Shown here piece after piece: positions 27,340-38,570 of a DNA stretch of 64,000 bases. This stretch comes from a phage. Within the stretch, counting starts at the first letter, position 1. The number at the start of each line of letters is the position of its first letter. The notes below the pieces were generated by a model, which saw only the letters and a program-made list of their open reading frames with translations, was not told the origin of the DNA and made no database searches. The DNA lies in sequence record PZ445443.1. The stretch is one strand, 5' to 3'. The position numbers and the translations under genes are program-made.

Positions 27340-28545
27340 ATGATTTTCATCTACGAACATTTCAAAACTCGTAAAGAAGCACGTGACCGCCGTGCAGAAC
27401 TTGAGAAGAAGGGTTTCACATGTGCCATTGAGAAAGGCGACACAACCTGGACACTGGCAGTTGGTGCCCCAGAGTTGTTCGATCCTGACCGTGACAGCGT
27501 CTGCTACACCCGTGAGGATTTTGAAACCCGTGAAGAGGCCCGTTTATTTAGATATGGGCTGGAAGATAACGGTAAGTACGCCATGATCTTAGACTTAGGC
27601 GAAGGTTCCGTTAAACGTTGGGGCGTGGTATACCCACTGTGTGTTGTTCACGGTGTGGGGTTTACTGGGGTAGCAATCAAGTCAGAAGAACCTTTAGTAG
27701 AAGTCAAAGATCCGGTGCTGGAAGTGGTGAGCAGTGTGTCTCAGCAACAGACTCGAAGCATCGAGCCTTTGGTAGTTATTTGCGGGGAACTCCTCCAGAT
27801 CACCTGCAACGAAGGAATTTTTGAAATTCGCCGCAGCGAAAGTGAGGAAGTTTACCAGAAAGTCTTCGACCATATCTCTGTTCAGGAATATGATGAGGCA
27901 ATTGGTGAAATCCTTGTCTGGCTGGAACGCAAGAATGAGTTCACCACACTTGCAGACAACCTGATCATGAAAGATGGTAAGCTCTACTACTACGGTGTAG
28001 AGATGCGATCCACCATTGCAAAGAAAATTGAGAAAGATTATGCAGACGGAACGCTGGATGACCGCTATGTGAAATTCCTCGTTCGCCTGCTACGCAATCC
28101 TTCTGCAAAATCTGTAAACATGCTCTACGATTTTATGCAGGCCAATGATATTCAGATTGCAGAAGATGGTCGAATCATTTGCTACAAAGGGGTTCAGTTT
28201 AACGGCAGCAAGTGGGTGGATTGGCACAGTGGTAAAGTCCCACAATACCAAGGTGCTTTTGTATCCATGCCTCGTAACTTTGTAGAGGATGATCCTGAAG
28301 CTGCGTGCTCCTATGGCTTACACTGCGCCAGCAAAGAGTATGCAAAGAGCTACGGCACTGTAATGACTGTCATGGTTGACCCTGCAGATGTAGTTAGTGT
28401 GCCATATCAACACAATAGCGCTAAGTGCCGTGCATGCCGCTATGAGATTGTGGTAGCTCCGGAAGCACGCAAAGATGGAGACCCTATTGAATATGTAGTT
28501 GATCGTGACGGTAACACTATCGACATTCTTTACGAGGAGGCGTAA
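27340..28545 (+). CDS. rIIB: rIIB-like protein
   Basis: 401 aa; FLVRLLRNPSAKSVNMLYDFMQANDIQIAEDG and GLHCASKEYAKSYG...VDPADVVSVP...NSAKCRACRYEIV resemble conserved rIIB blocks as recalled; follows rIIA. Confidence 0.6.
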   Translation: MIFIYEHFKTRKEARDRRAELEKKGFTCAIEKGDTTWTLAVGAPELFDPDRDSVCYTREDFETREEARLFRYGLEDNGKYAMILDLGEGSVKRWGVVYPLCVVHGVGFTGVAIKSEEPLVEVKDPVLEVVSSVSQQQTRSIEPLVVICGELLQITCNEGIFEIRRSESEEVYQKVFDHISVQEYDEAIGEILVWLERKNEFTTLADNLIMKDGKLYYYGVEMRSTIAKKIEKDYADGTLDDRYVKFLVRLLRNPSAKSVNMLYDFMQANDIQIAEDGRIICYKGVQFNGSKWVDWHSGKVPQYQGAFVSMPRNFVEDDPEAACSYGLHCASKEYAKSYGTVMTVMVDPADVVSVPYQHNSAKCRACRYEIVVAPEARKDGDPIEYVVDRDGNTIDILYEEA

Positions 28546-29915: not shown

Positions 29916-30253
29916 GTTTGTGGAGAAATATAGTTAACTACGTGTGTGGCAATCCAACTCCTGAAGAGAAGGATGTTGTGATTCACGATTTTACTAAAAG
30001 ATCTCGTGAAAAAGATCTACTGCTAACAAAGGTGACTGATAAAGATCCTGCAGTAGGGGACTGGGCAGGTTTTGCGTTCACATCGGACAAATACACCTTT
30101 AACAAAGGTGACTATCTTGTTGTGGATTTTAACGAGGACATCGAGGGTGCTGAACCTTACTATCAGACCCTTATTGTTGCAGGGTGTGTTGATCTCTCTG
30201 CAGGCATGCACAGTTTGATTCTTTTTGAGCTTGACTCTGAAGACCTTCAGTAG
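29912..30253 (+). CDS. hypothetical protein (113 aa)
   Basis: ORF track; ATGA coupling to helicase gene. Confidence 0.5.
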   Translation: MSLWRNIVNYVCGNPTPEEKDVVIHDFTKRSREKDLLLTKVTDKDPAVGDWAGFAFTSDKYTFNKGDYLVVDFNEDIEGAEPYYQTLIVAGCVDLSAGMHSLILFELDSEDLQ

Positions 30254-30270
30254 TAAGATGTGAGTCTAAA

Positions 30271-30288
30271 GGGGAGGCACTCCTCCCC
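30271..30288 (+). promoter_or_regulatory. intergenic GC stem-loop (no U-tract)
   Basis: GGGGAGG-cact-CCTCCCC between two + strand genes. Confidence 0.3.
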
Positions 30289-30315
30289 ACAAAAAACTAG
30301 GGAGAGCACCAAACG

Positions 30316-31641
30316 ATGAGCAAAACCAAATTAGAACTAACCTGGATAGGTAAAAACGAGCGCAAAAAGTTAGAGCCGCACATTTTGTTAGAAGATTCTA
30401 GCAAGTCTTACCACAGCCAGAAAGTGACCGAAAACGATATTTTTGATAATAAACTGATTTTTGGAGATAACTTATTAGCATTGAAGGCGCTAGAGCAAGA
30501 GTATGCAGGCAAAGTGAAGTGTGTTTACATAGACCCACCATTCAATACTGGAAGGGCTTTTGAGCACTACGATGATAGCCTAGAGCATTCCATTTGGCTG
30601 GGCTTAATGAGGGATAGGTTAGAAATAATTCGTAATCTTCTAAGTGATGATGGGGTAATATTCGTTCACTTAGATGATTGCGAAATGGCGTATTTAAAAG
30701 TTTTGATGGACGAGATTTTTGGTCGTGCAAATCAGTTAAATACCATATCGATGACCACAAATTCCCCTTCGGGATTTAAGGCAACAGGAGCCACAGTTTT
30801 CTCCACAGCAAACTTTTTGCTTGTATATGCAAAAGATCGCACCCAGAAACCGCTTAACAAAATCTATATACCTAAAGGGTATGATACAGGATATAACAAA
30901 TACCTATTAAACCCGGATGACCATTATAAAAATTGGACGTGGTGCGGTATTGCCGATGCGTTTGCAAAGGCCAATGGCTATAAAGATGCAAAAGAAGCCA
31001 AGAAAAAACTTCCTGACACATTCGATGATGAATTAGCACAATTCGCAATTGATAATGCAGAACGTGTATTTCAATCTGTTGCAATTGGTGGTGGTGCTAA
31101 AATAAAGAGAAAAGAAACTATCGAGAAGTCAAAGAAAGATAGGGATAAGGTCTATGTACATCCAAATGAGGATATTGAAGGATTTTATATCGCAAATGGT
31201 AGGCAAATGGTCTTTTACTCCAATAGGCTTTTGGAAATTGACGGGAAAATGCAACCTGCGGAACTAATAACTGATGTTTGGACAGACATTAGTTGGAATG
31301 GAATAGCAAATGAAGGCGGCGTTAGTTTCAAAAATGGGAAAAAACCAGAAGCGCTTTTGAAGCGGATTTTCGAAATGTGTACGCGAGAAGGTGATTTGGT
31401 ATTGGATTCATTTGGTGGTTCGGGAACTACTGCTGCTGTAGCTCACAAGATGAAAAGACGTTGGATCTCAATCGAGCTAGGTGATCATTGTCATACCCAT
31501 ATTATTCCGCGCTTGGAAAAAGTGATCGATGGTGAAGATCAAGGTGGTATTTCTGAGTCTGTAAACTGGCAAGGTGGTGGTGGTTTCCGTTATTACAAAC
31601 TTACCCCGACCTTAATTGCGAAAGATAAGTCTGATCAATAA
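30316..31641 (+). CDS. DNA methyltransferase (N6-adenine or N4-cytosine, beta-class)
   Basis: Motif IV VYIDPPFN precedes motif I LDSFGGSGTT. Confidence 0.8.
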   Translation: MSKTKLELTWIGKNERKKLEPHILLEDSSKSYHSQKVTENDIFDNKLIFGDNLLALKALEQEYAGKVKCVYIDPPFNTGRAFEHYDDSLEHSIWLGLMRDRLEIIRNLLSDDGVIFVHLDDCEMAYLKVLMDEIFGRANQLNTISMTTNSPSGFKATGATVFSTANFLLVYAKDRTQKPLNKIYIPKGYDTGYNKYLLNPDDHYKNWTWCGIADAFAKANGYKDAKEAKKKLPDTFDDELAQFAIDNAERVFQSVAIGGGAKIKRKETIEKSKKDRDKVYVHPNEDIEGFYIANGRQMVFYSNRLLEIDGKMQPAELITDVWTDISWNGIANEGGVSFKNGKKPEALLKRIFEMCTREGDLVLDSFGGSGTTAAVAHKMKRRWISIELGDHCHTHIIPRLEKVIDGEDQGGISESVNWQGGGGFRYYKLTPTLIAKDKSDQ

Positions 31642-31654
31642 AGAGTACAATCAA

Positions 31655-31960
31655 ATGATGAAACGTTATAAACCATACACTTTTGAAATCGATTTCGAAC
31701 TTGACGATATGTTCACTGTGGAAGCTCAGGCAGTTGTCCAGTTGCCAGACCCAGAGTGCCGTGATTCTGATGTTGACTATTATGGATTTAGACAGATCAC
31801 TGATGTGCATGTTTACCACAACGGCGAAGAGATTGACTTCCACCAACTGCCAAACGCTGTGCGCCACTCAATTTACAAACGTGCAGCCCGTGAACTAGAG
31901 TCCTATCTGGATGCAGCTACAACAGCGGCTGCATTTGCTGAAGAAGTAGGAGGTTTCTGA
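31655..31960 (+). CDS. hypothetical protein (101 aa)
   Basis: In-frame ATG downstream of methyltransferase stop; ORF-track start 31616 would overlap the methyltransferase gene. Confidence 0.4.
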   Translation: MMKRYKPYTFEIDFELDDMFTVEAQAVVQLPDPECRDSDVDYYGFRQITDVHVYHNGEEIDFHQLPNAVRHSIYKRAARELESYLDAATTAAAFAEEVGGF

Positions 31961-32355
31961 TGATTACAGGTGTGAAGGTTATCCAATACCACTTAACCAA
32001 ATTGGAAGATGCTGAAAAAGAGCTTGCAGAAGTTCTGAACAGCGGGTATACTTTTCTATCATGCGCCTGCTCAGACACCTACGTTGTGTGGACACTTATC
32101 CGGAAGGAAGATCCTGCAGGGATCTTGGTGCCAAATCCTAAGATTATTAGTGAGGTGGATGACTACTCTCAGGACGGCCTGCCAGAAGGTTGGGAAGTAT
32201 GGGAAGGTGGTGAAAACCCTGCACCAGGTAAGTGGGTAAAATACAAACTACGTAGCGGTGCACAGTACGCTGACTACTCTGATGACCTAGACTGGAGTCA
32301 TTCTTCACCAGGATCATCTGCAAGTTCATATGATATCGTAGCTTTTCAGGAATAA
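31960..32355 (+). CDS. hypothetical protein (131 aa)
   Basis: ORF track; TGATG coupling. Confidence 0.5.
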   Translation: MITGVKVIQYHLTKLEDAEKELAEVLNSGYTFLSCACSDTYVVWTLIRKEDPAGILVPNPKIISEVDDYSQDGLPEGWEVWEGGENPAPGKWVKYKLRSGAQYADYSDDLDWSHSSPGSSASSYDIVAFQE

Positions 32356-32367
32356 GGAGAAGAAGGT

Positions 32368-32850
32368 ATGTCAGATTTTATGTGGAAAGTAGGTTACGCA
32401 ACCCCTGAAATGTGTGAGGCTTGCTTTGTTAAAATAGGCCGCGAGGATATCGACAAAGTGATCCTTAAGTTTCGTGATGTGGCTGTGATCGGCAACCGAG
32501 TGCTTAAGCACTTAAAGAATCTGAAGCTCACCAAAAAGAAGTTCTTCGGACTTTTCGAAGAGAAGGTTGATGCTTGGACTCATTGCATTCAGGAAGCCAA
32601 ATCTCACTACAGTGCCATCGTTACTCCAGAACGGGTAGCAAAGATGGAAGGATTCATCAACAGCACAGAATTTGAGTGCCTAAAGGCTGCCCTTGATAGC
32701 TATCCAAAGTGCCTCAAACACCTTGACAAGTATGCAGAAAAGGATGGTGAAATGTATCTCACCCTGGACGCATATTATGAGATGCAAGAAATTTTAAATT
32801 TAGATTTGACATTGGTATCCACCGAGTATACAATAGGTATCCGGGTTTAA
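32368..32850 (+). CDS. hypothetical protein (160 aa)
   Basis: ORF track; RBS AAGGAG. Confidence 0.5.
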   Translation: MSDFMWKVGYATPEMCEACFVKIGREDIDKVILKFRDVAVIGNRVLKHLKNLKLTKKKFFGLFEEKVDAWTHCIQEAKSHYSAIVTPERVAKMEGFINSTEFECLKAALDSYPKCLKHLDKYAEKDGEMYLTLDAYYEMQEILNLDLTLVSTEYTIGIRV

Positions 32851-32856
32851 CACTAG

Positions 32857-32884
32857 GCCCTGCCCGAAAGGGTGGGGCTTTTTG
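32857..32884 (+). terminator. rho-independent terminator (copy 1 of a repeated hairpin)
   Basis: GCCCTGCCC-GAAA-GGGTGGGGC followed by TTTTT; same hairpin recurs at 43631. Confidence 0.65.
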
Positions 32885-32901
32885 CATTAGGAGACAGCAA
32901 A

Positions 32902-33666
32902 TTGAAATTTATCTACAAAGAACACTACCACAAAGGTGTTGTGTGGAGTCTATTTGACGGGTCTGGTGGTGCAGTCATTGACTGGGCAAAAGCTGGGTAC
33001 CTGTGCCTGTGCTTTAATGCAGAAGGTGCTGATCACGGCAGTTATGCAGAGGTTATAACCGATCATCCCAACATTCACTATGTGGATTATTGGATTGACC
33101 CATGGTTCCCTCAGGAAACTTTTTGCATGTACCCAGCTCCAGACTTTATTCTTGCATTTCCTCCGTGCACGCATTTAGCGGTATCAGGTGCTGCACATTT
33201 TAAGAAAAAGCTGGCTAAGGACCCCATGATCCAAATTAATGCTGTAAAGGATGCTCGGGTTGCGGAAGAGCTGGGAGAGATTTACGATTGCCCGTGGCAT
33301 GTAGAGAATCCTGTGGGTGTTATGTCCACACTGTGGCGTAAACCTGATTACCGTTTTCATCCTTCTGACTATGGTGGGTATTTACCGGAGGATGATGTAA
33401 ACCCTTGGTTTCCTGAATTTATAGCTCCACGTGATGCCTATCCAAAAATAACTTGCGGCTGGATAGGTAATGGATTTATAATCCCGCCCACAAAACCTGT
33501 CCCGCAAATAGTTGACGCGGTTAGCGGGTATTCCATGCAACACGCCAAGCTGGGTGGAAAGAGTGCAAGAACGAAGATGATTCGAAGCCTCACACCACGT
33601 GGCTGGGCAAAAGCCGTATTCCTGGCAAACGAGCCTGTAGTAAGGAGCAGAATTAATGGGAAGTAA
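32902..33666 (+). CDS. DNA (cytosine-5) methyltransferase-like protein, short form (TTG start)
   Basis: LFDGSGG (motif I-like), FPPCTHLAVSG (PC motif IV-like), HVENPVG (ENV motif VI-like); AGGAGA 7 nt before TTG 32902; track GTG 32872 lies inside terminator hairpin. Confidence 0.5.
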   Translation: MKFIYKEHYHKGVVWSLFDGSGGAVIDWAKAGYLCLCFNAEGADHGSYAEVITDHPNIHYVDYWIDPWFPQETFCMYPAPDFILAFPPCTHLAVSGAAHFKKKLAKDPMIQINAVKDARVAEELGEIYDCPWHVENPVGVMSTLWRKPDYRFHPSDYGGYLPEDDVNPWFPEFIAPRDAYPKITCGWIGNGFIIPPTKPVPQIVDAVSGYSMQHAKLGGKSARTKMIRSLTPRGWAKAVFLANEPVVRSRINGK

Positions 33667-35734
33667 ATTTATGGCATCTGCATACAACCGTTTCGGTGAG
33701 CCAAACCCGAAAGCAACTAAGTATAAAAGTGGGGGAAGTGTGAAACGAGACTATCGTGATGAAAAAGAAGTTGAAACTGTAGAGACTGTTTTAGAAAATA
33801 CTAAAATTGTCCCTGTCCCACAACAAAATATCGGTCTGATGGCTGCACAATATTTTGGTGTGCGATCAGCATTGTCACAAGAAGACGGTGTGACAGTCAC
33901 TGCAACATATTTCCCATATTACGACCGCTACGGAAATCTGTCCGGTTTCAAAAAGCGTGACTGGACGATTCCTAAAGAGCAAAGGGGCCATTTCTCAGTT
34001 GTTGGCATAGTAAAGGCTAACTCTCAGATGTTTGGGCAAAAGCTGTGTGCATCTTCCAACAACCGTAAGCAAATTAACGTTTGTGAGGGGGAAGGTGATG
34101 TTATTGCAGCATGGCAGGCTGCATATCAGATACAAGTAAAAGGGATTCTCACCAACGCTAAAGCCCCGGCAAAGGTGAAGCAGTGGGCTAAAGAGGTCCA
34201 GGACGGGATCGACGCAGTTATCAACGGTGGTGATCTGGCAGGAAAACCCTGCCTGCCTTTTGTTGGAATTAACTGTGGATGTGCAAACGCAGTAGATACT
34301 TTTGCAAACAATGAGAAGTTTATCCGTAGCTATGGAACAGTTGTGCTGGCAATGGATAACGATGCAGCTAACGAGGTAGAGAAGCAAAAACACGTCATTA
34401 AAGGTGTTGAGGCCACGCACAATATCGCAGCATTTTTGATGGCCGATAACGTTTACCACGTAGAATACCCTGGTGAAGTAAACGACCCTGACGGTGTAAA
34501 AGATATCCGAGACATGCTGAAGGCTAAAAAGCTGGAAGATATTGTCAACATGTTCCGGCACCCTGTTAAATATGTGCCTGATGCTGTGTCGGATTTAGAA
34601 GACTTCTCTATCGAGTCTTTGCGGAAAAAGACTTCCAACGGGGTAGATATCAGCGCAGAGTTCCCAAAACTGCAAAAAATGCTAAAAGGCTTGCACAAAG
34701 GGACACTCGTAATGCTTACAGGTCCGTCAGGTGGCGGTAAAACAACCGTAGCTAAAAAACTGGAACACTGTATTGCAAGATACCTAATGGACCCGACATG
34801 TCCGAAGGCCGATGACTACGAAGAGGATGATCGTCTATGCATGATCCATCTTGAGGAGGACCCAGAGGAAGCAATTAACTCCTTGTATGCAAACCAGTTA
34901 GGGTTTGATGTTAAAGAGTTTGTTGAAGATCCTAGCCAGTTTTTAACTGATCAAGAACACGCAGAGATTCACCAATCATGGGCAAAAGCTGGAAAAATCA
35001 AAGTGTTCAAACATTTCGGATCTATTCCGGTGGACGAGTTGATTACTAAGCTTAAGCAAATGGTTTGCCTGTACCATTGTCGTTATATTGTACTGGATCA
35101 CCTGTCCATGGTAATTTCAGGGCTTAATGTTAAGGATGAGCGAAAAGAACTGGACATGGCTATGACCCAACTGGCTGCGTTTTGTAAGCAGTTTAACGTG
35201 TTTATCTTGGTGATCGCTCACCTCAAACGTACAGAGATTGTGCCTCCTAAGGACAAGGATGGTAACCCGTTACCTTTCTGGTATCCTGTGCGAAAAGAGA
35301 ATTTGCGAGGATCGGCGGGGCTTGAACAGTTGAGTTGGGTAGTCATAGGTGTCGAGGCCGAAGAAATGGTGGATCGTTCTCGTGGACGTGTCCGTCTGGT
35401 AGGTCTTAAAAACCGTCCAGCAAAAGCTCTAGGTATTGCTGACACTTTGGTTATGGACCCGCACACAGGTAAGTTCCATGATGCCAGTAATTGGTACTGG
35501 GACAAAGAAATGCAAATGTTTACAGATGGAGAAGGTGGGGAGGTTGTTTGGAGACCTCAGGCTATGTTTGAGGATCAGGAGCATGCAGTTGTAGAAACAC
35601 CTATGGGCAAGGTTGTGGCTGATAAGGTTGTAACTCCTACTGTTAAGCCTGTTGACACGCAGGAAGAACTCCAGTACGATGATCCGTCCTCTGACCATGT
35701 TCCTGGTTTTGAGGATGATGAAACACCTTTTTAA
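33656..35734 (+). CDS. primase-helicase (Toprim primase fused to DnaB/gp4-like helicase)
   Basis: Toprim-like CEGEGD and AMDNDAAN; Walker A GPSGGGKTT; RBS AAGGAG. Confidence 0.8.
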   Translation: MGSKFMASAYNRFGEPNPKATKYKSGGSVKRDYRDEKEVETVETVLENTKIVPVPQQNIGLMAAQYFGVRSALSQEDGVTVTATYFPYYDRYGNLSGFKKRDWTIPKEQRGHFSVVGIVKANSQMFGQKLCASSNNRKQINVCEGEGDVIAAWQAAYQIQVKGILTNAKAPAKVKQWAKEVQDGIDAVINGGDLAGKPCLPFVGINCGCANAVDTFANNEKFIRSYGTVVLAMDNDAANEVEKQKHVIKGVEATHNIAAFLMADNVYHVEYPGEVNDPDGVKDIRDMLKAKKLEDIVNMFRHPVKYVPDAVSDLEDFSIESLRKKTSNGVDISAEFPKLQKMLKGLHKGTLVMLTGPSGGGKTTVAKKLEHCIARYLMDPTCPKADDYEEDDRLCMIHLEEDPEEAINSLYANQLGFDVKEFVEDPSQFLTDQEHAEIHQSWAKAGKIKVFKHFGSIPVDELITKLKQMVCLYHCRYIVLDHLSMVISGLNVKDERKELDMAMTQLAAFCKQFNVFILVIAHLKRTEIVPPKDKDGNPLPFWYPVRKENLRGSAGLEQLSWVVIGVEAEEMVDRSRGRVRLVGLKNRPAKALGIADTLVMDPHTGKFHDASNWYWDKEMQMFTDGEGGEVVWRPQAMFEDQEHAVVETPMGKVVADKVVTPTVKPVDTQEELQYDDPSSDHVPGFEDDETPF

Positions 35735-35792: not shown

Positions 35793-38570
35793 ATGAGCAT
35801 GTGGTCTTTCGATTTTGAGTCATCCGGTTTGCTGGAAGACCCAGATCTTTATTATCACTGCGGCCTGTTTAAAGAGCTGAATAAGAACCGTTTTATGCTG
35901 TTCCTTCCTCTAAATGACCGCACACACTACTCCGAGGAGGATATAGAGAAGGCTAAGAACTTTATTCTGGCAAAGAAAACTCTTTATAAAGATTTTGAAG
36001 TTCGCATAGCAGATTTTTCGGAGTTAGAAGGTTGGCTTACAGGCAATTCCGACTGGTCACCAACAGCTTTGAACTGCCATAACTGCTACAGTTATGACTT
36101 TATGCTGATGGAAAGATTATCCGGTATTCATTTTGATATGTTCCGTGATCCTAAATGCATGGGGACTATCAACGACCACCAGGTCAACCTGTTTGATACG
36201 TTGGCGATGAGCCGAATCTTATGGCCTGATCGCCCTTTACCAAAAGGTTGTCCGGACTCTGTATTCAACCCGGTTACTAAGAAAATGCAGCCTGTCGGTC
36301 CTCACGGCCTTATGGCATGGGGCTACGCCCTTGGTAACCAGAAAGTTCAAATTGATGACTGGCGCGATCTTCCGTTGTGGAAGTATGTGGATCGTGTATT
36401 CGAGGACGTTATCATCCAGGAGCTGCTCTGGAAAGAGCTGGTAGCGGAATCAAAAGGTGTATTCTACGGCAAATCTGACATGCAGAACTTTATGTACGAT
36501 CCTGCCAAAGAGAAGCCGAAAGGGTTCAAGAAGATCACCTGGAAGAACGCATTACGCCGAGGCATGCTGCAGCACTTCCTGATGGAGCTGCAGGCCCGTC
36601 AGGGTGTGTATTTTGACATAGATGGGGCTATTGCTTTACGTGACCGTTGCGATGCGTGGATGAAAGAAATCGCTGATCGTGTTGAACCGCAACTACCTTT
36701 AAAAGAGCTGTCAATGTCTCAGCGGCCCAAGTTCCCTGAAAAGCCGTTTAACCAAGATGGGACAATCTCCAATAATGGTTGGAAATGGTTAAAAGATAAG
36801 CTTGGCTATCCTGTAGATATGAGCGCTTTAGAGTTCAAAGCCCCGCCTAAGCGAGCATTTACCTCTACAGGAGATGTCAGTAAGATGGGGATAAAATGGT
36901 GTGAAGAGATGGGCTGCAAAGACCCCGATAAGATGGCTGATTTCTTGAGAGGCTATATTAAGGGCACCTCCACACCACAACCTTTACCTAAAGAGCTAAT
37001 GGATCAGGCAATAAGTGATCTACAGCAGAAGCGAATGCCGGACTGCAAGATACCTATGAAAATCAGCAACCAGGACGACATTAAGCGATACCTGATCAGT
37101 GCTGGTTGGCTTCCGACAATGTGGAGAACTAAGGATGTAACTAAAGACAGCAAGAAGAAAGCTCTACCTGATGCAGATGTTGATGCACGAGTATATGCAT
37201 ATATGGACGAGCTTTTAGAGTCAGAGTATTGTGACCTGATTATCAACTTCTGGAACAAAACTGATGCTAAGTTCCAGACAACCGTGCACAAGTTCCGAAG
37301 CTTTCCTAACTCCGAAAGGATTAAAAAGGAAGTATTCGGGAAAATACGTAGAAAAGCTAGGGCACTTATTACTTCTCCGCAACTGAAAGATACGTTTGGA
37401 CACCTATGCCCTAATCTTGAAAAATTGAACGGAGAGATGGCTAAAGATATCGTCTTGTGGTTATCATTGCGAAACCGCAGATCGGTACTTGATCCAATCA
37501 AGGAGGATAAGGTTGATACTGGTCTTCTTAATCACCCACGTTTGAAGATTGACCATAAGCTTCCTGCTAAAAGTTCTGGGTTAACAAACACTTCCCGACA
37601 GAAACACAGTATTTGTGCAAACATGCCTAAACCATCTCCTAAAGTGGTTATGGGTAAAGAGATGCGTAGTCTGTGGGGTGTTCCTCCAGGATACTTTGAG
37701 ATCGGTATTGACGGGTCCAACTTAGAGCAGCTTATCGGGGCTTGGGGTGCCTTTGAGTTCGACAACGGCCTGTATTACGATGTTGTAAGTAACGGGGACG
37801 CACACCAAAACAATGCTGAGGCATATACAAAAGTAGCAGGTAGAGAGGTGTCTCGTAACGACGGTAAACCTATCACGTATGGGGTTATGTATGGGGCACA
37901 AAAAGATAAAGTTGCAGATATGCTGGACATCTCTCCAGAGTTGGGACAAAGGGTAATCGATGCACTCTGGGATGCCAACCCTGGTCTTAAGGGGCGTAAA
38001 GAAGATCTGGAGAAATTCTGGGAAGCAACGGGTAAGAAGTTTATCTACTCTTTTGATGGTCATGCTATCTGGACCCGATCTAAACACTCTTTACTTAATG
38101 CATACCAACAAAATGGCGGCGCATCGTTGTGTGACTTAGTTGGGATACTCATGCACCATCAAATGGTGAAGCGTGGGTGGTACGATGAAGGTGTTCGTCG
38201 TATTATCTATTACCATGACGAATATCAGCTTCAAGTCCCTGACACACCGAAGTATAAGACTGTGTACACCTTCGACACAATCGAAGAACTGGAAGCATTT
38301 AAGGCAGAGCAGGAGGCCAAACTTCATGTGTTCGACGGTCATAAGTACAAAAAGGCACGCAAGGATGAGGACGGAAACGAAGTGGTTGACAGAGACGGAA
38401 ACACGGTGTACGATCCTATCCTGAACGATGACGGAAAGCTTGAACTTATCTGGAGCCCTGTGGGTGAAATGGTGGTGCATTGCTTCTGGCAAGCTTCTAA
38501 AATGATGGGCGTCCCGTTCCAGATCACAGGTGAATACCTGTGTGGTCGTAATTGGGGTGATTGTCACTAA
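35793..38570 (+). CDS. DNA polymerase, family A, with 3'-5' exonuclease domain
   Basis: 925 aa; Exo I-like FDFES; motif B-like KPITYGVMYG; motif C-like YHDEYQ; RBS AAGGAGA. Confidence 0.85.
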   Translation: MSMWSFDFESSGLLEDPDLYYHCGLFKELNKNRFMLFLPLNDRTHYSEEDIEKAKNFILAKKTLYKDFEVRIADFSELEGWLTGNSDWSPTALNCHNCYSYDFMLMERLSGIHFDMFRDPKCMGTINDHQVNLFDTLAMSRILWPDRPLPKGCPDSVFNPVTKKMQPVGPHGLMAWGYALGNQKVQIDDWRDLPLWKYVDRVFEDVIIQELLWKELVAESKGVFYGKSDMQNFMYDPAKEKPKGFKKITWKNALRRGMLQHFLMELQARQGVYFDIDGAIALRDRCDAWMKEIADRVEPQLPLKELSMSQRPKFPEKPFNQDGTISNNGWKWLKDKLGYPVDMSALEFKAPPKRAFTSTGDVSKMGIKWCEEMGCKDPDKMADFLRGYIKGTSTPQPLPKELMDQAISDLQQKRMPDCKIPMKISNQDDIKRYLISAGWLPTMWRTKDVTKDSKKKALPDADVDARVYAYMDELLESEYCDLIINFWNKTDAKFQTTVHKFRSFPNSERIKKEVFGKIRRKARALITSPQLKDTFGHLCPNLEKLNGEMAKDIVLWLSLRNRRSVLDPIKEDKVDTGLLNHPRLKIDHKLPAKSSGLTNTSRQKHSICANMPKPSPKVVMGKEMRSLWGVPPGYFEIGIDGSNLEQLIGAWGAFEFDNGLYYDVVSNGDAHQNNAEAYTKVAGREVSRNDGKPITYGVMYGAQKDKVADMLDISPELGQRVIDALWDANPGLKGRKEDLEKFWEATGKKFIYSFDGHAIWTRSKHSLLNAYQQNGGASLCDLVGILMHHQMVKRGWYDEGVRRIIYYHDEYQLQVPDTPKYKTVYTFDTIEELEAFKAEQEAKLHVFDGHKYKKARKDEDGNEVVDRDGNTVYDPILNDDGKLELIWSPVGEMVVHCFWQASKMMGVPFQITGEYLCGRNWGDCH

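What the first reader, a model, noticed from the sequence alone, without database searches (positions are those of the whole stretch)
30316..33666. Two DNA-methyltransferase-type genes flanking three unknown ORFs
A beta-class DPPF methyltransferase (30316-31641) is clear. A ~255-aa protein (32902-33666, TTG start) has C5-methyltransferase-like motifs I (FDGSGG), IV (PPC) and VI (ENP) but is too short for a typical target-recognition domain. It may be a minimal C5 methyltransferase or a pyrimidine-modifying enzyme of that fold, pointing to genome-wide DNA modification as anti-restriction.
Basis: partly seen in the sequence, partly recalled or inferred. Interest (0 to 1): 0.5.

Follow-up and report, generated by a model that had tools for sequence, protein, structure and literature searches.

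The report
Two annotated phage DNA methyltransferase genes
This stretch of an rV5-like E. coli phage carries two orphan DNA methyltransferase genes, one for adenine and one compact cytosine-C5 type; both are already annotated in public records, and they mark specific short sites rather than shielding the whole genome from restriction.

Summary
The window comes from a Vequintavirus, 99.6% identical to phages JeffSchatz and nomine. Gene 30316-31641 encodes a clear beta-class N6-adenine methyltransferase resembling type III Mod subunits (PF01555, 145 bits). Gene 32902-33666 (TTG start) encodes a 254-aa protein with the C5-cytosine methyltransferase fold. Its closest solved structures are the DNMT3A/B catalytic domains. 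The catalytic Cys89 (PPC) and Glu135 (ENP) are near-invariant across about 2000 family clusters, and dN/dS is about 0.04.

Nothing here is new. The identical protein is deposited as "Dcm-like C5 cytosine methyltransferase", and the family is PHROG 757, common in T1-like, lambdoid, RB49-like and rV5-like phages.

The two genes do not form a unit. The adenine methyltransferase is an accessory cassette, precisely absent from some sister phages.

The anti-restriction reading is only partly supported. Published nanopore data for a 98%-identical relative (Bas51) show complete m6A at GATC, made by a third methyltransferase outside this window. They also show complete m6A at GTAC, whose enzyme is unassigned. 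Vequintaviruses are nonetheless experimentally "exceptionally susceptible" to restriction systems. Whether the short enzyme makes 5mC, and at which site, has not been tested.

The parts
30316..31641 (+). Orphan beta-class N6-adenine DNA methyltransferase gene (441 aa), type III Mod-like; an accessory cassette within Vequintavirus
   Evidence: PF01555 at E=3.4e-42. PHROG 67 at E=2e-63. PDB sequence hits to H. pylori Mod 6k0w (1.3e-28) and EcoP15I Mod 4zcf (2.4e-24). Annotated 'putative N6 adenine methyltransferase' in JeffSchatz. Precisely absent in phiWec189 and 241Ecol014PP. dN/dS 0.08 against Bas51.
30532..30543 (+). Motif IV DPPF (aa 73-76) of the N6 methyltransferase
   Evidence: Read from the translation.
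31411..31425 (+). Motif I FGGSG (aa 366-370), the SAM-binding loop; it lies C-terminal to motif IV, which is the beta-class order
   Evidence: Aligned to the SAM-binding loop of Mod, CcrM, M.MboIIA and M.PvuII.
31658..31960 (+). ORF of 100 aa, acidic (20 D/E against 9 K/R), function unknown, restricted to Vequintavirus
   Evidence: PHROG 4240 at E=6e-32, with weak hits to two small PHROGs labelled DNA methyltransferase (8e-5 and 8e-3). Only 2 clusters among 5.8 billion proteins. Composition.
31960..32355 (+). ORF of 131 aa, function unknown
   Evidence: PHROG 11995 at E=8e-89, unknown function. No Pfam or NCBIfam match.
32368..32850 (+). ORF of 160 aa, function unknown
   Evidence: PHROG 12900 at E=1e-112, unknown function. 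No Pfam or NCBIfam match.
32806..32834 (+). Sigma-70-like promoter match (TTGACA-17-TACAAT, 11 of 12) inside the end of the 160-aa ORF
   Evidence: Consensus scan only; function not shown.
32855..32880 (+). Terminator-like hairpin (11 pairs, 7 G-C) followed by a T run, between the 160-aa ORF and the C5 methyltransferase gene
   Evidence: sequence.
32889..32894 (+). Shine-Dalgarno AGGAGA, 7 nt upstream of the TTG start
   Evidence: Sequence read.
32902..33666 (+). Compact C5-cytosine-methyltransferase-fold gene (254 aa, TTG start); its 3' end overlaps the primase/helicase start (33656) by 11 nt
32953..32970 (+). Motif I-like FDGSGG (aa 18-23)
   Evidence: hhalign places it on the FAGLGG motif of M.HhaI.
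33157..33171 (+). Motif IV FPPCT, with the putative catalytic Cys89
   Evidence: Cys in 97 of 102 family representatives. Invariant in A1 and A2. Aligned to the PC motif of M.HhaI.
33304..33312 (+). Motif VI ENP, with Glu135
   Evidence: E in 101, N in 93 and P in 100 of 102 representatives. Aligned to the ENV motif of M.HhaI.
33583..33603 (+). RSLTPRG, resembling motif IX, at the start of the C-terminal helix
   Evidence: R228 in 95, P232 in 92 and G234 in 93 of 102 representatives. The correspondence to motif IX as opposed to motif X is not resolved.

Best explanation
The region is part of the DNA-replication module of an rV5-like (Vequintavirus) coliphage. The gene order is Dda/PIF1-like helicase, small ORF, N6 methyltransferase, three small ORFs, C5 methyltransferase, primase/helicase, DNA polymerase. 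It holds two independent orphan DNA methyltransferase genes.

(1) The 441-aa protein is a beta-class N6-adenine methyltransferase related to type III Mod subunits, with no Res partner. It is an accessory gene cassette that some sister phages lack.

(2) The 254-aa protein belongs to a large phage family of compact (about 210-260 aa) C5-cytosine-methyltransferase-fold enzymes, PHROG 757.
- It keeps the SAM loop, the PC cysteine nucleophile, the ENV-type glutamate and an RSxTPRG element at the C-terminus.
- Its target-recognition region is cut down to about 30 variable residues.
- This makes it architecturally most like the DNMT3A/B catalytic domain.

Inferred mechanism:
- Both enzymes are made together with the replisome; the C5 gene overlaps the primase/helicase start.
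- Both methylate newly replicated phage DNA at short specific motifs, using SAM.
- That would protect only against restriction enzymes with matching sites.
- For the C5 enzyme the chemistry would be the standard one: Cys89 attacks C6 of a flipped-out cytosine, Glu135 protonates N3, and the methyl group goes to C5.

Shown: sequence and fold membership, conservation of the catalytic residues, purifying selection, and adenine methylation of a near-identical phage genome at GATC and GTAC.

Inferred: that these two particular proteins are active, and what their target sites are.
For: Identity of the phage: 99.6% over 4 kb to JeffSchatz and nomine; same gene order and annotation.

N6 methyltransferase:
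- PF01555 at 145 bits.
- Mod-like PDB hits.
- DPPF followed by FGGSG.
- dN/dS 0.08.

C5 enzyme:
- PHROG 757 at E=4e-87.
- 13 of 21 homologues hit PF00145, and three of them exceed the gathering score.
- C89, E135 and P137 are conserved in at least 95% of 102 representatives below 50% identity.
- About 2000 clusters at 50% identity.
- dN/dS 0.04-0.05.

Orphan phage contexts: lambdoid nin region next to Dam, NinG and RusA; a T1-like phage; TLS 'dcm'; Krischvirus.

Methylated virion DNA in Bas51: 1405 of 1406 GATC adenines and 509 of 516 GTAC adenines (PMC12548924; my site counts).
Against: - No 5mC measurement exists for any Vequintavirus. The Bas51 study called only 6mA.
- The window protein itself gives no Pfam or NCBIfam hit, and profile comparison with M.HhaI is weak (E=0.05-0.15).
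- Motif II carries Asn39 where 91 of 102 relatives have Asp.
- The R-x-R of motif VIII and the GN of motif X cannot be located with confidence.
- For the N6 enzyme, the only methyltransferase assigned experimentally in Bas51 is a different one (177 aa; D69, D79 and T83 match it and not the 441-aa protein). Its activity and site therefore remain unassigned.
- Vequintavirinae are highly sensitive to the restriction systems tested, so any protective role is narrow.
Confidence: 0.7

Rival explanations
1. The short protein is an active C5-pyrimidine transferase, but it transfers something other than a methyl group. One possibility is carboxymethyl from Cx-SAM, as CmoX does. E. coli makes Cx-SAM itself through CmoA, so the phage would not need its own synthase.
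For: - The cofactor-contacting motifs are atypical: Asn39 in motif II and no clear GN in motif X.
- That E. coli produces Cx-SAM is established knowledge.
Against: - The CmoX signatures reported in PMC12783734 are an SPPC motif and an Arg replacing M.HhaI Asn304. Here the motif is FPPC, with F in 92 of 102 representatives.
- If G234 corresponds to the motif X glycine, the next residue is Phe or Trp, not Arg or Lys.
- No CmoA or amide ligase is annotated in the Bas51 genome.
- Canonical methyltransferases score similarly in the fold search.
Confidence: 0.05
2. The short protein is a catalytically inactive methyltransferase-like protein, in the manner of DNMT3L. It would act as a DNA-binding or regulatory subunit in the replication module.
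For: - It has no Pfam hit of its own.
- The acidic motif II residue is replaced by Asn.
- Motifs VIII and X are not recognisable.
- No 5mC has been reported for these phages.
Against: - The catalytic Cys and Glu and the ENP motif are invariant or nearly so across the family. That is not expected for a non-catalytic scaffold.
- Purifying selection is strong (dN/dS 0.04), although this alone would also fit a structural role.
Confidence: 0.1
3. The short protein methylates RNA, for example tRNA in the manner of Dnmt2, or single-stranded replication intermediates, rather than duplex phage DNA at a defined motif.
For: - Vequintaviruses encode six tRNAs.
- The gene is coupled to the primase/helicase gene.
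- The region around the TRD position is unusually conserved across the family.
Against: - DNA methyltransferases (DNMT3, CmoX, M.HhaI) score higher than Dnmt2.
- The family is common in T1-like and lambdoid phages.
- Dnmt2 keeps all ten motifs and a full-size TRD, which this protein does not.
Confidence: 0.05
4. The two methyltransferases and the three ORFs between them form one co-inherited anti-restriction or DNA-modification cassette.
For: - The genes are adjacent and on the same strand.
- The 100-aa ORF has weak hits to two small PHROGs labelled DNA methyltransferase.
Against: - phiWec189 and 241Ecol014PP keep the helicase, the three ORFs and the C5 gene but lack exactly the N6 gene.
- The N6 gene is found in 87 records, against about 116 for the C5 gene.
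- A terminator-like hairpin separates the three ORFs from the C5 gene.
- The three ORFs have no enzymatic signature.
- Elsewhere the C5 family occurs without these neighbours.
Confidence: 0.05

Closest known systems
Phage 'Dcm-like' short C5 cytosine methyltransferases (PHROG 757; e.g. QXV80973.1 of JeffSchatz, 'dcm' of phage TLS, homologues in T1-like, lambdoid and Krischvirus phages)
   Same: It is a member. The identical sequence is already deposited under this name. It gives a full-length PHROG match at E=4e-87. Size (210-260 aa) and conserved residues are the same.
   Different: Nothing distinguishes it from the family. No experimental demonstration of activity or specificity for the family turned up in the papers I searched.
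DNMT3A/DNMT3B catalytic domain (eukaryotic de novo CpG methyltransferases)
   Different: Only 13-15% identity. DNMT3 works as a DNMT3L-assisted tetramer with chromatin-reading domains. DNMT3 also has an acidic motif II residue and recognisable motifs VIII and X. No oligomer information is available here.
Canonical bacterial type II C5 methyltransferases (M.HhaI, M.HaeIII; Pfam PF00145)
   Different: About 75 residues shorter. The 80-100-residue TRD is absent. Motif II has Asn rather than Glu. There is no clear QxRxR or GN motif. The protein scores below the Pfam threshold. It has no restriction-enzyme partner.
Type III restriction-modification Mod subunits (EcoP15I Mod, H. pylori Mod) - for the 441-aa protein
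   Same: Beta-class motif order, a conserved N-terminal region and the DPPY/F block, with E=1e-28 to 2e-24 against solved Mod structures.
   Different: About 180-200 residues shorter. No Res subunit is adjacent. It is an orphan, phage-borne accessory gene. Its target site is unknown.
CmoX, the phage DNA cytosine C5-carboxymethyltransferase (PDB 8yf3; PMC12783734)
   Different: This protein lacks the SPPC motif and the Arg that binds the carboxyl group. No CmoA or ligase gene is nearby.

Membership tests
C5 cytosine DNA methyltransferase (PF00145 superfamily) | Rossmann-like C5-methyltransferase catalytic fold | tested here: met
C5 cytosine DNA methyltransferase (PF00145 superfamily) | Motif IV Pro-Cys with the catalytic cysteine | tested here: met
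   FPPCT at aa 86-90. Cys89 is invariant in A1 and A2 and present in 97 of 102 representatives. It aligns to the PC motif of M.HhaI.
C5 cytosine DNA methyltransferase (PF00145 superfamily) | Motif VI Glu-Asn-Val (the glutamate that protonates N3) | tested here: met
   ENP at aa 135-137. E is present in 101 of 102 representatives. It aligns to the ENV motif of M.HhaI.
C5 cytosine DNA methyltransferase (PF00145 superfamily) | Motif I FxGxG SAM loop | tested here: met
   FDGSGG at aa 18-23, aligned to motif I of M.HaeIII and DNMT3B. In the wider family the first Gly is not conserved; Tyr is the commonest residue there.
C5 cytosine DNA methyltransferase (PF00145 superfamily) | Motif II acidic residue at the end of strand 2 (binds the SAM ribose) | tested here: not met
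   Asn39 is invariant in the 21-sequence clade, whereas 91 of 102 wider-family members have Asp. Asn could still form the hydrogen bonds, so this does not prove loss of SAM binding.
C5 cytosine DNA methyltransferase (PF00145 superfamily) | Motif VIII QxRxR | tested here: inconclusive
   hhalign places EYGGYLP on the DYGIPQ of M.HhaI, but no R-x-R follows. The candidates are R177, K182 and T184 (54%, 95% and 95% conserved).
C5 cytosine DNA methyltransferase (PF00145 superfamily) | Motifs IX and X (RxLTxRE...GFP, and GN(A/S)V) at the C-terminus | tested here: inconclusive
   A single conserved RSxTPRGFAxAV element followed by Asn243 (68 of 102) lies in one C-terminal helix. Whether it stands for motif IX, motif X or a fusion of both could not be resolved.
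C5 cytosine DNA methyltransferase (PF00145 superfamily) | Variable target-recognition domain of about 80-100 residues between motifs VIII and IX | tested here: not met
   Only about 30 variable, lower-confidence residues (about 196-225) separate the conserved core from the RSxTPRG element. The whole protein is 254 aa, against 327 for M.HhaI.
C5 cytosine DNA methyltransferase (PF00145 superfamily) | Pfam PF00145 gathering score | tested here: not met
   The window protein gives no PF00145 hit at E<=1. Homologues at 55-56% identity do pass: 24.7-28.5 bits against a cut-off of 22, covering motifs I-IV only.
C5 cytosine DNA methyltransferase (PF00145 superfamily) | Produces 5-methylcytosine in DNA | not testable with these tools
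   No 5mC data for any Vequintavirus turned up. The Bas51 nanopore study called 6mA only.
PHROG 757 (phage short 'DNA methyltransferase') | Full-length profile match | tested here: met
   E=4.3e-87, residues 10-261 of the 264-aa form on profile positions 3-226 of 247.
Beta-class N6/N4 DNA methyltransferase (PF01555), type III Mod-like | PF01555 gathering score | tested here: met
   145.3 bits against 26.7, covering residues 67-393.
Beta-class N6/N4 DNA methyltransferase (PF01555), type III Mod-like | Motif IV (D/S)PP(Y/F) lying N-terminal to motif I FxGxG, with Asp indicating an adenine-N6 target | tested here: met
   DPPF at aa 73-76 and FGGSG at aa 366-370. That Asp rather than Ser at this position indicates N6-adenine rests on general knowledge of these families.
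Beta-class N6/N4 DNA methyltransferase (PF01555), type III Mod-like | Partner Res subunit (a complete type III system) | tested here: not met
   The neighbours are a PIF1/Dda-like SF1 helicase and small ORFs, with no Res-type helicase-nuclease. The protein is an orphan.
Beta-class N6/N4 DNA methyltransferase (PF01555), type III Mod-like | Demonstrated m6A activity and target site | tested here: inconclusive
   Bas51 DNA carries m6A at GTAC and at about 350 'other' sites that do not depend on the 177-aa GATC enzyme. Whether the 441-aa or the 272-aa methyltransferase is responsible has not been assigned.
CmoX-type C5-carboxymethyltransferase | SPPC motif, an Arg replacing the motif X Asn, and an associated CmoA | tested here: not met
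   The motif is FPPC, with F in 92 of 102 representatives. No Arg or Lys follows G234. No CmoA is annotated in Bas51. The criteria come from PMC12783734.

The most novel reading that the evidence does not exclude
PHROG 757 may be more than a trimmed Dcm. It could be a distinct, minimal, DNMT3-like branch of C5 transferases with:
- a non-canonical cofactor pocket (Asn or Asp in motif II, no GN motif X);
- no R-x-R;
- a region at the TRD position that is conserved across the family instead of variable.

That could mean a single shared, very short or structure-dependent target, such as replication-fork or single-stranded DNA, across T1-like, lambdoid, RB49-like and rV5-like phages. It could also mean use of a host-supplied SAM analogue. 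My evidence does not exclude this, because no activity, specificity or cofactor has been measured for any member.
Probability: 0.12. Interest if true: 0.55.

Novelty: already known. Interest (0 to 1): 0.2.

Why it matters
As it stands this is ordinary. Both genes are already annotated in dozens of Vequintavirus records, and the short family is a catalogued phage group.

The residual value is practical. A very common family of about 230-aa C5-methyltransferase-fold proteins in enterobacterial phages, about 2000 clusters at 50% identity, still has no measured activity or target site. The target of the Mod-like adenine enzyme is also unassigned, even though a nanopore data set for a 98%-identical phage already exists. 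Assigning these sites would explain part of the unexplained m6A pattern in Bas51. It would also show which restriction enzymes, or type IV systems that cut methylated DNA, these therapeutically used phages evade or provoke.

Tried and rejected
- **Pfam and NCBIfam on the short protein.** No hit. The classification therefore rests on PHROGs, homologues and fold.
- **Sequence search of the PDB.** Using the single protein and two family profiles gave only marginal hits to DNMT3B, M.HaeIII and DNMT2 (E=0.4-1).
- **hhalign of the family profile against M.HhaI and an M.HhaI-family profile.**
  - Motifs I, IV and VI line up, but the scores are weak (E=0.05-0.15), and global mode gave nonsense.
  - Motifs VIII, IX and X could not be mapped, because model coordinates and structural alignments are not returned by the tools.
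- **Linking the Bas51 retron-trigger methyltransferase to the 441-aa gene.** I expected this to work, but it did not. The mutated residues D69, D79 and T83 fit the 177-aa NPPY enzyme bas51_0176, which lies outside this window.
- **Guessing the C5 target from oligonucleotide statistics.** CCWGG is mildly depleted (O/E 0.69), and many GC-rich 6-mer palindromes are absent. This is generic site avoidance and does not identify a target.
- **Homologue search for the 100-aa ORF.** It found only Vequintavirus copies, so no alignment deep enough for structure prediction could be built.
- **One literature search returned only irrelevant RNA-m5C papers.** Searches for 5mC data on Vequintavirus or BASEL phages found none.
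- **The cassette idea** (two methyltransferases plus three ORFs as one unit) was rejected by the gene-content comparison.

Full report
**What the window is**

A 4-kb query around the finding is 99.6% identical to Escherichia phages JeffSchatz (BASEL Bas55) and nomine, and 90-99% identical to more than 100 other Vequintavirus (rV5-like) records. The gene order is rIIA, rIIB, Dda/PIF1-like helicase, a 113-aa ORF, the N6 methyltransferase, three small ORFs, the short C5 methyltransferase, primase/helicase and DNA polymerase. It matches the annotated JeffSchatz record. There the two genes are already named 'putative N6 adenine methyltransferase' and 'Dcm-like C5 cytosine methyltransferase'. The exact 254-aa protein is deposited under that name for several phages.

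**Checking the observation**

- ORF 30316-31641 (441 aa) has DPPF at aa 73-76 and FGGSG at aa 366-370. This is the beta-class order, with motif IV before motif I.
- It matches PF01555 at 145 bits and the solved type III Mod subunits of H. pylori and EcoP15I at E=1e-28 and 2e-24.
- ORF 32902-33666 has FDGSGG, FPPCT and ENP.
- The TTG start is right. An AGGAGA Shine-Dalgarno sequence lies 7 nt upstream, and the alternative GTG at 32872 sits inside a strong terminator-like hairpin at 32855-32880.

**What the short protein is**

By itself it gives no Pfam or NCBIfam hit. It does match PHROG 757 'DNA methyltransferase' over its full length at E=4e-87.

- More than 3500 homologues were found. A profile search found about 2000 clusters at 50% identity, nearly all 210-260 aa long.
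- Thirteen of 21 close homologues hit PF00145 weakly. Three exceed the gathering score, but only over motifs I-IV.
- An AlphaFold model built on 21 homologues is confident (pLDDT 86, pTM 0.87).
- The top 47 Foldseek hits in the PDB are C5 methyltransferases: 46 DNMT3A/B entries and the prophage methyltransferase 3g7u (best E=2.5e-6, probability 1.00). In the viral structure library the best matches are phage 'DNA-cytosine methylases'.

The fold assignment is therefore solid. The nearest architectural relative is the compact DNMT3 catalytic domain, which also has only a small recognition loop.

**Motif-by-motif test**

I aligned 102 representatives that are below 50% identical to one another.

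- The near-invariant positions are L17, G32, F86, P87, C89 (97 of 102), G96, K103, A114, E135 (101), N136, P137 (100), P154, D178, Y180, K182, T184, W187, P195, R228, P232 and G234.
- Profile comparison with M.HhaI is statistically weak (E=0.05-0.15). It still lines up motif I, PC with PC, ENP with ENV, and EYGGYLP with the DYGIPQ at the start of motif VIII.
- Departures from the canonical family:
  - Motif II is Asn39 in this clade, whereas it is Asp in 91 of 102 relatives.
  - No R-x-R follows the motif VIII start.
  - The C-terminus has a single RSxTPRGFAxAV helix and not separate motifs IX and X.
  - Only about 30 variable, lower-confidence residues (about 196-225) occupy the place of the 80-100-residue TRD.
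- I could not resolve motifs VIII to X further, because the tools return neither model coordinates nor structural alignments.
- The gene is under strong purifying selection: dN/dS is 0.04-0.05 against two Vequintavirus species that are 93% identical at the nucleotide level.

This favours an active enzyme. An inactive DNMT3L-like scaffold would not be expected to keep the Cys and Glu.

**Context of the family**

Homologues sit as orphans in several settings. One is a lambdoid prophage nin region, next to Dam, NinG, RusA and the antiterminator. Another is a T1-like phage. They also occur in phage TLS (annotated 'dcm') and in Krischvirus and Salmonella phages. No restriction-enzyme partner is seen. 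Two published descriptions of related Vequintavirinae phages had already called their cytosine methylase by HHpred, without experiments.

**The N6 gene is an accessory cassette**

- The C5 gene is found at 90% identity or more in about 116 phage records. The N6 gene is found in only 87.
- phiWec189 and 241Ecol014PP keep the helicase, the 113-aa ORF, all three small ORFs and the C5 gene, but lack exactly the methyltransferase gene.
- The alignment shows a clean indel of about 1.34 kb. Both versions share the upstream hairpin and ribosome-binding region, and the same GATGA sequence is present at both edges of the insert.
- A terminator-like hairpin also separates the three ORFs from the C5 gene.

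The layout 'two methyltransferases flanking three ORFs' is therefore a matter of adjacency and not a functional unit.

The three ORFs have no informative matches. The 100-aa one is acidic and confined to Vequintavirus.

**Experimental evidence from the literature**

A 2025 PLoS Biology paper (PMC12548924) sequenced native DNA of Bas51 (WalterGehring). Its orthologue of the 441-aa protein differs from the window's at 6 residues.

| Sample | GATC m6A | GTAC m6A | Other m6A |
|---|---|---|---|
| Wild type | 1405 | 509 | 576 |
| T83P methyltransferase mutant | 35 | 511 | 349 |

I counted 703 GATC and 258 GTAC sites in that genome, which gives 1406 and 516 adenines. Both motifs are therefore essentially fully methylated.

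The mutated residues D69, D79 and T83 do not fit the 441-aa protein, which has C69, G79 and E83. They fit the 177-aa NPPY methyltransferase bas51_0176 exactly, and that gene lies outside this window. Bas51 in fact carries four methyltransferase-type genes.

GTAC and the 'other' sites must therefore come from the 441-aa Mod-like enzyme, the 272-aa GNPPF enzyme, or both. My guess is that the palindromic, two-strand GTAC mark fits the small type II-like enzyme better, and that an asymmetric motif hidden among the roughly 350 'other' sites would fit the Mod-like one. This is inference only. The study did not call 5mC.

**Anti-restriction interpretation**

The BASEL study found Vequintavirinae 'exceptionally susceptible' to restriction-modification systems and seemingly lacking effective protection. 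That rules out a broad, genome-wide protective modification. Strong restriction by EcoRI and EcoRV in that study also argues against wholesale base replacement.

Site-specific methylation would protect only against enzymes with matching sites, and none of those was in the tested panel.

The genome also shows classical site avoidance. Nine GC-rich 6-bp palindromes are absent from the window, against 38 occurrences expected in total. The same pattern holds genome-wide in Bas51.

**Verdict**

- Both genes belong to known kinds and are already annotated as such in public records.
- I put about 0.7 on the combined statement that these are two independent, active, site-specific orphan DNA methyltransferases. 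The probability is higher for the N6 enzyme and lower for the C5 enzyme.
- What remains open is the activity, cofactor and target of the very common short C5 family, and the site of the Mod-like enzyme. Both could be settled quickly with existing material.

Noticed in passing
window 32806-32880: A near-consensus sigma-70-like promoter (TTGACA-17-TACAAT, 11 of 12) is followed about 20 nt later by a strong terminator-like hairpin with a T run, just upstream of the C5 methyltransferase ribosome-binding site. Promoter followed by terminator is an unusual order. It could be a 5' stabilising stem or an attenuator.
   Followed up: partly
window, whole 64 kb (also L007-L009, the Bas51 genome): Nine GC-rich 6-bp palindromes are completely absent from the window, against about 38 occurrences expected in total: CCCGGG, CCGCGG, CGATCG, CGCGCG, CGGCCG, CTCGAG, GCCGGC, GCTAGC and GGCGCC. 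Bas51 shows the same pattern genome-wide. GTAC (O/E 0.59) and CCWGG (0.69) are depleted. This is classical restriction-site avoidance.
   Followed up: partly
L009:8091-8624 (-) and L009:24069-24887 (-), Bas51 genome, outside the window: Vequintaviruses carry two further small N6 methyltransferase genes. One is 177 aa with NPPY; its residues D69, D79 and T83 identify it as the published GATC methyltransferase and retron trigger. The other is 272 aa with GNPPF. The retron paper does not say which of the three 'N6 adenine methyltransferase' genes it means; the residue numbering settles it.
   Followed up: yes
window 30253-30316 and 31641-31658; L014:3155-3300; L015:3158-3303: The N6 methyltransferase gene is a clean presence/absence cassette of about 1.34 kb. 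Both forms share the upstream hairpin and ribosome-binding site, and a GATGA sequence lies at both edges of the insert. This suggests gain or loss by recombination at a short homology.
   Followed up: partly
public records matching window 30000-34000: Sixteen or seventeen GenBank records named 'Campylobacter phage' (MG0656xx, host C. jejuni, unannotated) are about 97% identical to this E. coli rV5-like sequence. They are probably mislabelled or are contaminating coliphages.
   Followed up: no
window 31960-32100 and 27340-27640: The first 45 or so residues of the 131-aa ORF resemble a small module repeated at the N-terminus of the rIIB-like protein (blastp 31% over 39 aa; Pfam SPOR at E=0.0014 on the rIIB N-terminus). 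They also resemble the N-terminal parts of PHROGs labelled DNA ligase. This may be a shuffled small binding domain.
   Followed up: partly
BFVD hits A0A6J5SE15 (1397 aa) and A0A6J5NPY6 (1126 aa): The short C5 methyltransferase domain also occurs fused inside very large proteins of uncultured phages, one of them annotated with a helicase/UvrB N-terminal domain.
   Followed up: no
window 35793-38570, compared with L008:19933-24283: The DNA polymerase gene is a single uninterrupted ORF (925 aa) in the window. In Bas51 it is annotated as joined from two pieces with a homing endonuclease inside, and another endonuclease gene lies just upstream. Intron and homing-endonuclease content varies between close relatives.
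   Followed up: no
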